Shown: one piece after another, positions 30,873 to 43,468 of the stretch | Numbering within the stretch: the stretch's first letter is position 1 | How the letters are laid out: each line of letters starts with the position of its first letter | Sequence record: OQ721909 | Length of the DNA stretch: 64,000 nt | Direction: 5' to 3' (one strand) | Source: Escherichia phage vB_VIPECOOM01 | Notes under the pieces: model-generated | What the model saw: the letters and a program-made list of their open reading frames with translations, nothing else | The model's database searches: none | What the model was told of the DNA's origin: nothing | Position numbers and translations under genes: made by a program

Positions 30873-31175
30873 TTATTTACCTTTAATTACTTTAGCTGCT
30901 TCGATAGCCGCTTGCTGAAGGTCATCCATAGACATACCGAATTTAGAAGCAAAGTTATCAATTTTCTTTTCGACAGCATTCAAAGGCTTGGCCTGTTTAC
31001 CTTCATTAGCGCCAGGAAGAGCGAGAATACGCTCTTTGTCAATATAAAGGCTTACAAGTTTCTTACGGTCTTTATCGGACAAATCATGAAATGAATGGGC
31101 CTTTTTATTTATAGCGGCTTCTAATTTACCTGCACTCACTCGCGCTTCAGCAATAAATTCTTGATATGTTTTCAT
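30873..31175 (-). CDS. ipII: Internal protein II (capsid-packaged)
   Basis: 100 aa; N-terminal MKTYQEFIAEA capsid-targeting leader. Confidence 0.85.
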   Translation of the reverse strand: MKTYQEFIAEARVSAGKLEAAINKKAHSFHDLSDKDRKKLVSLYIDKERILALPGANEGKQAKPLNAVEKKIDNFASKFGMSMDDLQQAAIEAAKVIKGK

Positions 31176-31283: not shown

Positions 31284-31862
31284 TTAAGAATTACCACGAG
31301 CTGCATTAGCAACGGCGTAAGCGTACTGAACATTAGCGTCTTTAAACGTACCTTTAGAGGTATCTAGTTCTGCCTTAAAGCCGCCTTTAGTCATAACATC
31401 GGCAAATTCTTTACGGAAAGCCATTGCATCAAGGCTTCTCCATGACGATTTGTGCTTGGCGAATTCAAGACCAGCGTAGTTGACAGCCTTAGCTAATTTA
31501 TTATCAATAACCCATTTACCTGCTTTAGGCACAAATACCGGGCCTTTCTGTTTAGAGAATAGTTTTAAATTCCAGCGACGAAGGTCACCGTCAGCTTTAA
31601 CAAAAGCTGCGTCCAAGTTACTAGCAACAACATCTTGAATATGGCCAAATTTAAGCCCATCAACTTCAATATTTAGATCGGTACGCCAGCGAAGTCCTTC
31701 CCAAGCGAAAGCTTTAAAGTCAGAAGCCTTTGTAGCTAAATACCGTTCAATAGTAGCTGTTTTAGGGTCAAAGCCGTTTCCTCGATAAGTCCACTCATCT
31801 TTATTAATTCCTTTGGCCTTTTCCACAGAAGCTTCAGCGATAAATTCTTTATACGTTTTCAT
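31284..31862 (-). CDS. ipIII: Internal protein III (capsid-packaged)
   Basis: 192 aa; N-terminal MKTYKEFIAEA leader. Confidence 0.85.
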   Translation of the reverse strand: MKTYKEFIAEASVEKAKGINKDEWTYRGNGFDPKTATIERYLATKASDFKAFAWEGLRWRTDLNIEVDGLKFGHIQDVVASNLDAAFVKADGDLRRWNLKLFSKQKGPVFVPKAGKWVIDNKLAKAVNYAGLEFAKHKSSWRSLDAMAFRKEFADVMTKGGFKAELDTSKGTFKDANVQYAYAVANAARGNS

Positions 31863-39961: not shown

Positions 39962-40486
39962 TTAAAGCAAATTAAACATTTTAACGGTCGGCAAAACAAT
40001 TTCTTCTTCTATATAAGAGTATTTAACACTCTCAACTACACGCAAAAAATCATAATCATAATACTCAGAAGCATTACCTAAAATATTAATAAGTCCTTCA
40101 AGCACTTTATTACCATTCACAAAAAATAAGTCAAATACACGTTCTTCATCTTCTTCAGATTTATTACCAAGATCAACTTCTATGCGAAAGACCTTTTTAA
40201 TGAATTCTGGATAAAGCTGGTCTGAGAACAGTCCTTCAACCAAGTATTCATAAATAAAAAGAGATTGCTCGCTGAACAAACCATTACCGCAATAGCGCTC
40301 AATTTTAGTACTAGAATATCTGCTTTTAAATTTCTTTAAAAGATACTGAAATTGTAAGATTTCATGCTCTTCTACGCCAAACAGTGTTTTAGTTTTATAG
40401 TTGTCACCATCATTTTCCCAGGTAGTGACATCAATTACGTAACCCTGCGGAATTGTAGTACCCAAACAAATATTCATTTTCACCAC
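39962..40486 (-). CDS. hypothetical protein
   Basis: 174 aa ORF. Confidence 0.55.
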   Translation of the reverse strand: MVKMNICLGTTIPQGYVIDVTTWENDGDNYKTKTLFGVEEHEILQFQYLLKKFKSRYSSTKIERYCGNGLFSEQSLFIYEYLVEGLFSDQLYPEFIKKVFRIEVDLGNKSEEDEERVFDLFFVNGNKVLEGLINILGNASEYYDYDFLRVVESVKYSYIEEEIVLPTVKMFNLL

Positions 40487-40772: not shown

Positions 40773-41171
40773 TCAGCCTTCATCAACAATAGTGTGAGTA
40801 TTAGCATTTACAATTTGCCACCAATCAAAGCGATTAGAATCCATCGGTTTGTTTTCATTTTCTTTGATAATGTCACGGAGTTCATCTTCAGAGAATGCTT
40901 TAGCAATTAAATCGGTATACCCACCACGGGGATAATAATTATCACCTGCAAACAAAAGGAAATTTACCTTCCCGGAAGGAACATACGCTTCCTTAGGATA
41001 CTTGTTTCCTGTGTGGTCAACCACTTCAATATAACGGTAAGGAATATCGGTTCTTTCAACCCATTGCCATGCCGCTGCAGGGGAATCGAAAGCATCTACA
41101 CCTAAACGATTATCTTCATCTTTAGACGGATTATTTTCGTAATCCGCATATACATAATATTCAACGTTCAT
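40773..41171 (-). CDS. hypothetical protein
   Basis: 132 aa ORF. Confidence 0.55.
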   Translation of the reverse strand: MNVEYYVYADYENNPSKDEDNRLGVDAFDSPAAAWQWVERTDIPYRYIEVVDHTGNKYPKEAYVPSGKVNFLLFAGDNYYPRGGYTDLIAKAFSEDELRDIIKENENKPMDSNRFDWWQIVNANTHTIVDEG

Positions 41172-41356
41172 TATTCACCTTTAGAAATTTTATCCATAAC
41201 GATAGCAATTAAACCAATTAAAAATGCTACTACAAGTGAAAAAACATTTTCTGCCGTAGTCAATAATCCGCATATAAATCCAACAAACATTGAAAAACTG
41301 AAAGCGGAAGCAGAAATTGCAATAGCAACATTTCGAATTAATTCACAACGTTTCAT
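41171..41356 (-). CDS. hypothetical small membrane protein
   Basis: 61 aa from Met with GAGGAGAAT RBS (MKRCELIRN); longer ORF-track ORF would contain its own promoter. Confidence 0.4.
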   Translation of the reverse strand: MKRCELIRNVAIAISASAFSFSMFVGFICGLLTTAENVFSLVVAFLIGLIAIVMDKISKGE

Positions 41357-41380
41357 TTTATTCTCCTCAGTAGTTGATAG

Positions 41381-41414
41381 GGTAATAATATCACTACCCC
41401 ATCTAAAAGTAAAC
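41381..41414 (-). promoter_or_regulatory. early promoter
   Basis: GTTTAC -35, GTGATATTATTACC -10 on minus strand. Confidence 0.55.
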
Positions 41415-41648
41415 TTATTTTTTACGAAAAATTGATTTATTTTCTGCTGCCCATTTTTCAATAACTGCAGCAGGACCAGTAACAACAATTTTATCACCGT
41501 AATCTTCTGCGGCGAGTTGACCGAAATTATCTAATGCATCACGAAGAACTCCATGAGGCATTTCACCCATTTTATCTTTCTTGCCGGTGTAAATAAACTC
41601 AACTTTTACATCAGAAGATTCAGCGATAAACTCTTTGAAAGTTTTCAT
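41415..41648 (-). CDS. ipI: Internal protein I-like capsid-targeted protein
   Basis: 77 aa from MKTFKEFIAES leader; early promoter upstream; position matches T4 ipI. Confidence 0.6.
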   Translation of the reverse strand: MKTFKEFIAESSDVKVEFIYTGKKDKMGEMPHGVLRDALDNFGQLAAEDYGDKIVVTGPAAVIEKWAAENKSIFRKK

Positions 41649-41680
41649 TTTAGTTTCCATTCGATTGTTTTGTTTTGATA

Positions 41681-41735
41681 GGGTAATAATATCACAACTA
41701 AAACCCTATGTAAACAACTTTGTGAAATTATTTTA
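41681..41735 (-). promoter_or_regulatory. early promoter upstream of ipI-like gene
   Basis: UP element, GTTTAC -35, TGTGATATTATTACC -10. Confidence 0.6.
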
Positions 41736-41985
41736 AATCTTCTAATCGTTTCTTCATCTTAGAACCATTTTTAGCAATTTCTCCTGCATCGGAGCATAAT
41801 GCTAAAAGTGCTTTAACTTTCGTTTGGTCTCCTTTAAAAGATGAAGGATCTACTGCAGCAGCAAGTTCTTTAATACGAGAGAAAAGACGCTCAGCTTCAG
41901 CTAAAGCCATTCCAAGCTTTACTTCCATACCGTGGGAAGATTCAGTGATAGTAGTTTTTGTAGCAAACTCTTTGAAAGTTTTCAT
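41728..41985 (-). CDS. hypothetical protein with partial CTS-like leader
   Basis: 85 aa; N-terminal MKTFKEFATKTTITESS; own early promoter. Confidence 0.5.
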   Translation of the reverse strand: MKTFKEFATKTTITESSHGMEVKLGMALAEAERLFSRIKELAAAVDPSSFKGDQTKVKALLALCSDAGEIAKNGSKMKKRLEDLK

Positions 41986-42011
41986 TTTATTTTCCTAATT
42001 AATTTTGATGA

Positions 42012-42742
<731 letters not shown>

Positions 42743-42743
<1 letters not shown>

Positions 42744-43468
42744 TATAGTACCTTTAGTGTATTTTTAATTTTAGAAAAAAGTTCTTCAAGAGAACCATCG
42801 TTTGTAATTACTAAATCGCCATTACGAATTGGCAATCCAGCTTCTGTAATATGTGTATCATTGGATTTTTGACCAGGACGAACTACATGAATTACTGTAG
42901 CACCCATCGCCCTAGCCGCATCCATTTCATGATCTTGACGAGTATCAGGAACGATATAATAATCATAACCTGAGTTAAATTTATCAAGATAATCTAAAGC
43001 AAATAATTTTACCCAATACATGCGGTCGAAGTTATTAACAATCAAATCCGTACCTAGGGCTTGCATCAGACGACGGACTGACCATTGATCTTCAATATTA
43101 TTTATAACGTCAATAATCTTGTTACATGCTACGGAATCAACTGATTCTTGTCCTTCGTCCTCAAAAACACACACACCTTTAATTGGGCTTTTACTATTAA
43201 GATAGCAAAATGCTTGTTCCATAATCGTGATTACTTCTGATTTAGTCAGATTTAAATTAGTCTCACGATCATAGTCAATTCCTTCAAACTCTTTACGAGT
43301 TAAGCAAGGATAGTCAGTGTTTGCTGCGAATACGCCCCATGCATAAGCCAATGCATCCTTAATAGGACCAGCAAGTTGATATTTAACTGCAGAATAATTA
43401 TTCATGATAAAATCTGCAGTAGTATCTTTTCCACTACGCTTTACACCGCTTAAAAAGATTAGTTTCAT
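42743..43468 (-). CDS. 1: Deoxynucleoside monophosphate kinase gp1
   Basis: 241 aa; P-loop GVKRSGKDT. Confidence 0.93.

What the first reader, a model, noticed from the sequence alone, without database searches (positions are those of the whole stretch)
41415..41985. Tandem ipI-like genes, one with a degenerate capsid-targeting leader
41415..41648 starts MKTFKEFIAES (IPI-like) and 41728..41985 starts MKTFKEFATKTTITESS, a partly degenerate leader with a later I-T-E-S cleavage-like site. Each has its own early promoter sharing the same UP-element/GTTTAC architecture, suggesting duplication and divergence of an injected-effector cassette.
Basis: seen in the sequence. Interest (0 to 1): 0.5.

Follow-up and report, generated by a model that had tools for sequence, protein, structure and literature searches.

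The report
Known ip5 and ip6 internal-protein genes
These are two already-named genes (ip5 and ip6) for small proteins that a T4-like phage most likely packs into its head and injects with its DNA; they sit in a gene slot long known to hold different such genes in different phages, so the finding is real but ordinary.

Summary

The shared early-promoter architecture is confirmed, and each promoter also has a hairpin around its -10 box. A third copy precedes trna.4.

Two points of the interpretation fail:
- The 85-aa leader is not degenerate. It is the extended leader of T4 IPI itself (MKTFKEF…ITE), four residues shorter.
- The genes are not diverged duplicates. Similarity stops at the leader in BLASTP and profile comparison, and the predicted folds differ (helical hairpin versus ferredoxin-like).

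Only the promoter, ribosome site and leader module is repeated. Comparison with T4, T2, RB15, DalCa and 36 IMG/VR loci shows cassettes swapped, inserted and deleted at these repeats. This matches the published PeSL-like shuffling model.

An anti-defence function, by analogy with T4 Ip1-3 (GmrSD inhibitors), is inferred and not shown.

Verdict: already known, low interest.

The parts
42058..42513 (-). Gene 57B (Acb1, anti-CBASS phosphodiesterase), the upstream boundary of the IP slot. Its last codons (GAC GAT TTA AAA TAA) already lie inside the repeated AT-rich promoter module.
   Evidence: Pfam PF23474 Acb1, E 7.8e-60. Near-identical to T4 57B across the part aligned, its 3' end.
41986..42073 (-). 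Promoter and leader module 1, upstream of ip5. It holds an AT-rich upstream stretch containing the 57B stop codon, -35 GTTTAC (42045-42040), a TG-extended -10 TACTAT (42021-42016), a perfect 10-bp hairpin around the -10 box (42006-42015 / 42026-42035), and the ribosome site AGGAAA.
   Evidence: RNA fold -17.5 kcal/mol, z -2.6. Almost identical to the T4 ipI promoter.
41728..41985 (-). ip5, 85 aa. The leader is codons 1-15 (41941-41985), MKTFKEFATKTTITE. The predicted mature Ip5* is 70 aa (41731-41940), 7.5 kDa, pI 9.2.
41649..41743 (-). Promoter and leader module 2, upstream of ip6. It starts inside the last codons of ip5 (GAA GAT TTA AAA TAA). It holds -35 GTTTAC (41715-41710), a TG-extended -10 TATTAT (41691-41686), a hairpin (41670-41684 / 41703-41717), and the ribosome site TGGAAA.
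   Evidence: RNA fold -15.8 kcal/mol, z -2.7. In T4 the same promoter sequence drives trna.4.
41415..41648 (-). ip6, 77 aa. The leader is codons 1-10 (41619-41648), MKTFKEFIAE. The predicted mature Ip6* is 67 aa (41418-41618), 7.4 kDa, pI 6.5.
   Evidence: phrog_8111, E 3.3e-51. Annotated ip6 in phages VR7, VR25 and fFiEco06. UniRef name 'Ip6 putative internal head protein'. Model is ferredoxin-like, pLDDT 81. pI.
41360..41414 (-). Promoter module 3, upstream of the trna.4 homologue. It has -35 GTTTAC, a -10 TATTAT and a hairpin GATGGGGTAGTG/UAUUACCCUAUC. Together with the -10 region of module 2 it forms the direct repeat that brackets the ip6 cassette relative to T4.
   Evidence: RNA fold -16.1 kcal/mol, z -2.9.
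41171..41356 (-). trna.4 homologue, a 61-aa small hydrophobic protein. It is the downstream boundary of the IP slot.
   Evidence: phrog_1692, E 6.4e-35. Annotated CDS. The aligned 5' end is near-identical to T4 trna.4.
30873..31175 (-). ipII-like gene, 100 aa, leader MKTYQEFIAE. It lies in the second IP locus, between e and denV.
31284..31862 (-). ipIII-like gene, 192 aa, leader MKTYKEFIAE. It lies in the second IP locus.

Best explanation
The two ORFs are ip5 and ip6. They are two unrelated members of the T-even 'internal protein' collection and occupy the hypervariable slot between 57B and trna.4, where T4 has ipI.

Each gene is a self-contained cassette made of these parts:
- an AT-rich upstream stretch;
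- a T4 early-type promoter with a hairpin around the -10 box;
- a ribosome site;
- a short N-terminal capsid-targeting sequence (CTS);
- a small, family-specific mature protein.

Shown here: the cassette anatomy, the identity with the named Ip5 and Ip6 families, the lack of any relationship between the mature parts, and recombination junctions that fall inside the repeated modules.

Inferred from established T4 biology (CTS work on IPIII; gp21 cleaves after L/I-X-E; PMC9026906):
- The leader takes each precursor into the prohead scaffolding core.
- gp21 removes it after E15 in Ip5 (I-T-E/SS) and after E10 in Ip6 (I-A-E/SS).
- The roughly 7.5-kDa mature proteins are injected with the DNA.

Inferred by analogy only: once injected they neutralise a host defence. 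T4 Ip1, Ip2 and Ip3 each block one specific GmrSD type IV restriction enzyme (PMC12373910).

The repeated promoter and leader modules serve as homology patches for the phage recombination system. This is how cassettes are inserted, deleted and exchanged between phages. It is the PeSL-like shuffling model that Arbiol et al. 2010 derive from Repoila et al. 1994.
For: Identity:
- The window is 100% identical to OQ721911.1.
- Ip5 is 100% identical to RB15 Ip5.
- Ip6 carries that name in VR7, fFiEco06 and UniRef.
- PHROG hits are 1e-49 and 3e-51.

Leader:
- 44 of 47 CTS ORFs surveyed have MKT[FYL]x[ED]F[ILM]xE. The three exceptions are T4 IPI and two Ip5 sequences, which share the extended ...ITE leader.
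- T4 IPI is 95 aa and its mature form is 76 residues (PMC3012670). This fits cleavage after TITE at residue 19.
- Variant P0004 joins a 10-residue leader directly to SSHG.

Unrelated mature parts. Different predicted folds.

Shuffling:
- The T4 and window sequences are near-identical through the 57B 3' end, the promoter and the first seven codons. They are unrelated in the mature region, then near-identical again from the next promoter.
- ip6 is an insertion relative to T4, bracketed by the repeat GTGATAYTATTACCCTATCAA.
- L036 lacks ip5, and the junction lies inside the shared GATTTAAAATAATTTCACAAAGTTGTTTACAT.
- T2 carries ip5-ip7, RB15 carries ip5-ip9-ip7-ip8, and T4 carries ipI.
- 38 loci hold 14 unrelated CTS families, with 0-3 per locus between 57B and trna.4.
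- The window's ip6 leader carries a conversion patch: 13 differences from DalCa in 52 nt against 1 in the next 200 nt, p = 4e-9. Its first 21 coding nt are identical to those of ip5.

Literature: PMC2839356, PMC4122927, PMC3012670, PMC12373910.
Against: - Packaging, cleavage and injection of Ip5 and Ip6 were not observed here, and I found no virion proteomics for them.
- No functional paper on Ip5 or Ip6 is in the held library.
- T2 carries Ip5 and Ip7 yet is restricted by GmrSD-ECOR21 and GmrSD-ECOR17 (PMC12373910). If Ip5 is an anti-restriction protein, its target is a different enzyme.
- The promoters here are early-type, while prohead assembly is late. Late supply would need read-through, for example from the TATAAATA at 43099-43106. 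This was not shown.
Confidence: 0.85

Rival explanations
1. Tandem duplication followed by divergence. One ancestral ip cassette duplicated in place, and the two mature proteins have since diverged beyond recognition.
For: The two cassettes share a 71-nt promoter repeat at 82% identity and a 31-nt ribosome-site and leader repeat at 97% identity, with similar periods of 330-337 nt. The proteins are of similar size.
Against: - There is no similarity beyond the leader by BLASTP or hhalign.
- The predicted folds differ, all-alpha against alpha/beta.
- Each protein has close orthologues that occur independently of the other: ip6 alone in L036, and ip5 with ip7 in T2.
- A near-identical leader next to an unrelated body is the signature of recombination or conversion, not of uniform divergence.
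Confidence: 0.05
2. Ip5 and Ip6 are packaged, but they act as internal head components (DNA charge neutralisation, packing or ejection aids), not as inhibitors of host defences.
For: Mature Ip5 is basic, with pI 9.2. T4 internal-protein lysines contact DNA phosphates in the head (PMC3012670).
Against: - Mature Ip6 is near neutral, with pI 6.5.
- The genes show presence/absence polymorphism among otherwise near-identical phages. This argues against a general structural need.
- All three T4 Ips with a known function are specific GmrSD inhibitors (PMC12373910).
Confidence: 0.12
3. The leaders are carried along only as recombination homology. The proteins are ordinary early cytoplasmic proteins that are never encapsidated.
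For: Only early-type promoters lie directly upstream. No TATAAATA late-promoter motif lies between 57B and trna.4.
Against: - The leader is conserved at the residues shown to matter for targeting (4 and 7) and for processing (I-x-E) (PMC9026906).
- T4 ipI has the same promoter and leader, and T4 IPI is a processed, injected internal protein (PMC3012670).
Confidence: 0.04

Closest known systems
[not shown]
   Same: The 85-aa protein is 100% identical to RB15 Ip5. The 77-aa protein belongs to the family annotated ip6. The genomic slot is the same, between 57B and trna.4.
   Different: Nothing substantive. This phage combines ip5 with ip6, while RB15 has ip5-ip9-ip7-ip8 and T2 has ip5-ip7. The ip6 copy here has an ip5-type first seven codons.
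T4 IPI (Ip1), the injected inhibitor of the GmrS/GmrD type IV restriction enzyme
   Same: Same slot, almost the same promoter, the same first seven residues, and for Ip5 the same extended leader ending I-T-E.
   Different: The mature region is unrelated in sequence. IPI* is described as two beta sheets flanked by terminal helices (PMC3012670). Ip5 is modelled as a helical hairpin and Ip6 as a ferredoxin-like fold. The targets of Ip5 and Ip6 are unknown.
PeSL mobile regulatory cassettes (Arbiol et al. 2010, PMC2839356; Comeau et al. 2014, PMC4122927)
   Same: The composite element holds the upstream gene's stop codon in an AT-rich tract, a promoter, a stem-loop overlapping the -10 box, a Shine-Dalgarno site and the ATG. 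Cassette gain and loss junctions fall inside it.
   Different: The authors call the IP-locus elements analogues of PeSLs, not homologues. They are T4 early-promoter based, with weaker AT-rich stems lacking polyG/polyC. Here the homology also extends into the coding leader.

Membership tests
T-even internal proteins (CTS-bearing, gp21-processed, injected) | N-terminal capsid-targeting sequence MKT(Y/F)(Q/K)EF, with the targeting-critical residues 4 and 7 | tested here: met
   Both ORFs start MKTFKEF. The motif is enriched, 4 copies against 0.01 expected. The role of residues 4 and 7 comes from PMC9026906.
T-even internal proteins (CTS-bearing, gp21-processed, injected) | gp21 cleavage motif L/I-X-E at the end of the leader | tested here: met
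   Ip6 has I8-A9-E10. Ip5 has I13-T14-E15, matching T4 IPI I17-T18-E19. Variant P0004 has a 10-residue leader ending ITE before SSHG.
T-even internal proteins (CTS-bearing, gp21-processed, injected) | Location in one of the two IP loci (57B-trna.4, or e-denV) | tested here: met
   Gene order 57B, ip5, ip6, trna.4, as at T4 ipI.
T-even internal proteins (CTS-bearing, gp21-processed, injected) | Physical presence of the processed protein in the virion, and injection into the host | not testable with these tools
   No proteomic data found. This needs mass spectrometry of virions.
Ip5 / Ip6 named families | Full-length sequence similarity to the named proteins | tested here: met
   100% identity to RB15 Ip5. 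phrog_3499 at 1.2e-49 and phrog_8111 at 3.3e-51. UniRef names.
T4 IPI (Ip1) GmrSD-inhibitor family | Homology of the mature, inhibitor part | tested here: not met
   BLASTP aligns only residues 1-26 (Ip5) and 1-14 (Ip6) of IPI. They fall in different clusters in the survey.
Tandem paralogues (duplicate genes) | Detectable homology of the two mature proteins, in sequence or fold | tested here: not met
   Searches find similarity in the leader only. Searches give different predicted secondary-structure topologies.
PeSL-like regulatory/recombination cassette | Promoter plus adjacent or overlapping stem-loop in an intergenic AT-rich element, with rearrangement junctions inside it | tested here: met
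   Three promoter and hairpin elements, with fold z-scores -2.6 to -2.9. Junctions seen in T4, L036 and DalCa. Terminator activity and mini-circle formation were not testable.

The most novel reading that the evidence does not exclude
Ip5 and/or Ip6 are injected inhibitors of a host defence different from the three GmrSD variants blocked by T4 Ip1-3. T2 carries Ip5 yet is restricted by GmrSD-ECOR21 and GmrSD-ECOR17. The two proteins would then be ready-made probes for finding an uncharacterised defence system or subtype in E. coli. Separately, the leader of ip6 in this lineage has been overwritten by that of its neighbour ip5. This shows that the CTS coding sequence itself acts as a recombination substrate.
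Probability: 0.35. Interest if true: 0.45.

Novelty: already known. Interest (0 to 1): 0.12.

Why it matters

The remaining value is practical. Ip5 occurs in about 495 and Ip6 in about 245 of the 50,697 phage records searched, and I found no reported target for either. After the 2025 finding that T4 Ip1-3 each disarm one GmrSD variant, they are obvious candidates for matching to further defence systems. The cassette boundaries mapped here show where such genes can be swapped cleanly.

Tried and rejected
- Pfam and NCBIfam gave nothing for Ip5 or Ip6.
- PDB sequence search gave no significant hit.
- Foldseek on the Ip5 model gave only generic helical hairpins, with no E <= 0.001. Neither search gives a functional lead.
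- An exhaustive phmmer of mature Ip6 against 1.84 billion cluster representatives found two real relatives. The third hit (P0018) is an NHL-repeat artefact. There is thus no non-phage origin to report.
- Literature searches for 'Ip5/Ip6' were swamped by inositol phosphates. A stricter search found nothing.
- Repoila 1994 (PMC395341) is not held, so it is cited only through other papers and the GenBank record. Bair et al. 2007 (PMC1868451) was not read, because the one query sent to it was rejected for a too-short term.
- I considered the longer METK... start for ip6 at 41660 and rejected it. That ATG is part of the Shine-Dalgarno-like TGGAAA and has no ribosome site of its own.
- I considered that the hairpins are intrinsic terminators. 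The only terminator-like site the scan found lies at 43437-43416, outside this locus, and the stems are followed by AUCAAAA rather than a U-run.

Full report
**Source and context**

A 1.5-kb stretch around the finding (41100-42600) is 100% identical to Escherichia phage vB_VIPECOOM03 (OQ721911.1, genus Tequatrovirus). 207 of 789 matching phage records carry the same arrangement over at least 80% of that stretch.

All genes in the region are on the minus strand. In order they are:
- gene 1, dNMP kinase (42743-43468);
- 57A (42513-42743);
- 57B (42058-42513);
- the 85-aa ORF (41728-41985);
- the 77-aa ORF (41415-41648);
- homologues of T4 trna.4, trna.3 and trna.2;
- the tRNA cluster.

T4 has 57B, ipI, trna.4, trna.3, trna.2. 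The two ORFs therefore occupy exactly the ipI slot.

**Observation check**

The source record annotates them as 'internal head protein' and 'internal virion protein'.

The leader-coding pattern ATGAAAACNTWYMARGARTTY occurs four times in the 64-kb window, against 0.01 expected by chance. The other two copies head the ipII-like (100 aa) and ipIII-like (192 aa) genes next to the endolysin gene.

Three minus-strand early-type promoters are present, each with GTTTAC, a 17-nt spacer and a TG-extended TAYTAT box. They lie upstream of the 85-aa ORF, the 77-aa ORF and trna.4.

The first two promoters share a 71-nt repeat at 82% identity. They also share a 31-nt repeat at 97% identity that runs from the ribosome site through codon 8.

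Each promoter carries a hairpin that encloses its -10 box. The fold energies are -15.8 to -17.5 kcal/mol, with z-scores of -2.6 to -2.9.

The repeat begins inside the preceding coding sequence. 57B and the 85-aa ORF both end ...GAT TTA AAA TAA.

**Identity**

The 77-aa protein belongs to the family annotated ip6 in phages VR7, VR25 and fFiEco06, and named Ip6 in UniRef.

The PHROG hits are phrog_3499 'internal head protein' at 1.2e-49 and phrog_8111 'internal virion protein' at 3.3e-51.

**The leaders**

T4 IPI begins MKTFKEFTSTTTPVSTITE/ATLTSEV. Its mature form has 76 residues (PMC3012670), and 95 minus 19 is 76, which fits cleavage after TITE.

The Ip5 leader, MKTFKEFATKTTITE/SS, is this same extended leader with four residues fewer. 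It is not a decayed version.

A natural Ip5 variant (P0004) has a canonical 10-residue leader, MQTYQTFITE, joined directly to SSHGMEV. This puts the cleavage site at I-T-E/S.

Ip6 has the canonical 10-residue leader ending I-A-E. This is also the ending in the window's ipII- and ipIII-like genes.

Among 47 CTS ORFs from 38 loci, 44 have the canonical [ILM]-x-E at residues 8-10. The three exceptions are T4 IPI and two Ip5 sequences.

Published mutagenesis of the IPIII leader places targeting mainly at residues 4 and 7 and processing at residues 8 and 10. The prohead protease gp21 cleaves after L/I-X-E (PMC9026906). Both ORFs fit these rules.

**Are the two genes diverged duplicates?**

The evidence says no.
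- BLASTP aligns only residues 1-12 of Ip6 with 1-17 of Ip5.
- Profile-profile comparison aligns 12 leader columns and nothing else.
- BLASTP of each mature part against all surveyed CTS proteins finds only its own family.
- The AlphaFold2 models differ. Ip5 is a two-helix antiparallel hairpin (pLDDT 71). Ip6 is a beta-alpha-beta-beta-alpha-beta fold (pLDDT 81).

Both models rest on shallow alignments, so the fold argument is supportive and not decisive. Neither protein resembles mature T4 IPI.

Fold and sequence searches against solved structures returned only generic matches.

**How the locus changes**

Aligning T4 with the window shows a clear pattern:
- The sequences are near-identical from the 3' end of 57B through the promoter and the first seven codons.
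- They are unrelated across the mature coding region.
- They become near-identical again at the next promoter.

In T4 that next promoter drives trna.4. In the window it drives ip6. Relative to T4, ip6 plus one promoter is an insertion bracketed by the direct repeat GTGATAYTATTACCCTATCAA.

Other loci show the same kind of change:
- IMG/VR locus L036 has 57B joined directly to the ip6-type promoter. The junction lies inside the shared GATTTAAAATAATTTCACAAAGTTGTTTACAT, so the ip5 cassette is simply absent.
- T2 carries ip5-ip7, RB15 carries ip5-ip9-ip7-ip8, and L035 carries ip7 alone.
- Across 38 loci there are 14 mutually unrelated CTS families, with 0-3 per locus between 57B and trna.4.
- Ip5 has a 47.6%-identical relative in the other IP locus, between e and denV, in Mosigvirus phages.

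In the 50,697-record phage collection, relatives of IPI occur in 292 records, Ip5 in 495, Ip6 in 245 and Ip7 in 284.

One detail is specific to this lineage. Compared with phage DalCa, the window's ip6 differs at 13 positions in the 52 nt covering the ribosome site and leader, but at only 1 position in the next 200 nt (Fisher p = 4e-9). Its first 21 coding nucleotides are identical to those of the neighbouring ip5. This is a conversion patch inside the leader.

**Relation to published work**

All of this matches earlier work:
- Arbiol et al. 2010 (PMC2839356) state that Repoila et al. 1994 saw PeSL-like sequences at the two highly variable IP loci, that more than 30 IP variants are known, and that these elements may account for the plasticity.
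- Comeau et al. 2014 (PMC4122927) repeat the point.
- Rao and Black 2010 (PMC3012670) describe the IPs as a diverse set of defence proteins that share only the CTS.

I could not read Repoila 1994 itself.

**Function**

T4 Ip1, Ip2 and Ip3 each inhibit one specific GmrSD type IV restriction enzyme, with no cross-protection (PMC12373910). By analogy, Ip5 and Ip6 are most likely injected inhibitors of other host defences. This step is inference only.

T2 carries Ip5 and Ip7 yet is restricted by GmrSD-ECOR21 and GmrSD-ECOR17 (PMC12373910). Those two enzymes are therefore unlikely targets of Ip5.

Predicted mature Ip5 is basic (pI 9.2). Predicted mature Ip6 is near neutral (pI 6.5).

Mature Ip6 has no detectable relatives beyond its own small cluster family among 1.84 billion representative proteins.

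One gap remains. Only early-type promoters lie directly upstream, while prohead assembly is late. A late-promoter-like TATAAATA lies inside gene 1, upstream of 57A (43099-43106). It could supply read-through transcripts, but this is untested, and the motif count in the window is at chance level.

**Verdict**

Its interpretation as internal-protein cassettes is right. Its reading as 'duplication and divergence' with a 'degenerate' leader is wrong. The whole feature is already known and annotated.

Noticed in passing
window 42058-42513 (-): Gene 57B is annotated 'RNA ligase' in the source record, but it matches Pfam Acb1 (anti-CBASS phosphodiesterase) at 7.8e-60. Acb1, ip5 and ip6 therefore form a contiguous stretch of known and presumed counter-defence genes.
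   Followed up: partly
window 41615-41666 (-): The ribosome site and leader of ip6 differ from phage DalCa at 13 of 52 positions, against 1 of the next 200. The first 21 coding nt equal those of ip5. This is a gene-conversion patch confined to the leader.
   Followed up: yes
L036:4430-4570 (IMGVR_UViG_2974787500_000001): A closely related phage lacks ip5. 57B is joined directly to the ip6-type promoter, and the junction lies inside the shared upstream repeat.
   Followed up: yes
L041:1501-1782 (Mosigvirus PhAPEC2): An Ip5 relative (47.6% identity) sits in the other IP locus, between e and denV. Its leader, MKTYSEFLSESILSE, has two consecutive L-x-E sites. Cassettes evidently move between the two IP loci.
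   Followed up: partly
window 41649-41660 (-): An in-frame ATG lies four codons upstream of the ip6 start (METK-MKTF...). It is conserved in DalCa and makes some gene callers extend the ORF (P0007, P0011). It overlaps the Shine-Dalgarno-like TGGAAA and is probably not used.
   Followed up: partly
window 43099-43106 (-): A T4 late-promoter-like TATAAATA lies inside gene 1, upstream of 57A. It is a possible source of late read-through transcription into 57B, ip5 and ip6. The motif frequency in the window is at chance level (12 found, 11.1 expected).
   Followed up: no
window 39962-40486 (-); L001:831-1313: A 174-aa ORF (phrog_2290) lies between the trna.2 homologue and tRNA-Gln and has no counterpart there in T4. 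A 160-aa ORF (phrog_16521) sits inside the tRNA cluster, roughly where T4 has the homing endonuclease gene segB.
   Followed up: no
window 40773-41171 (-): The trna.3 homologue (132 aa, phrog_1411) is flagged 'virion structural protein [STEP3]' in the source annotation. It has no Pfam hit and no CTS-type leader.
   Followed up: no
X03016.1 (T4 ipI record, hit H111): The old GenBank feature gives 'mature IpI (aa 1-80)'. Later literature gives a 76-residue IPI*, which fits cleavage after TITE at residue 19. The annotations disagree.
   Followed up: no
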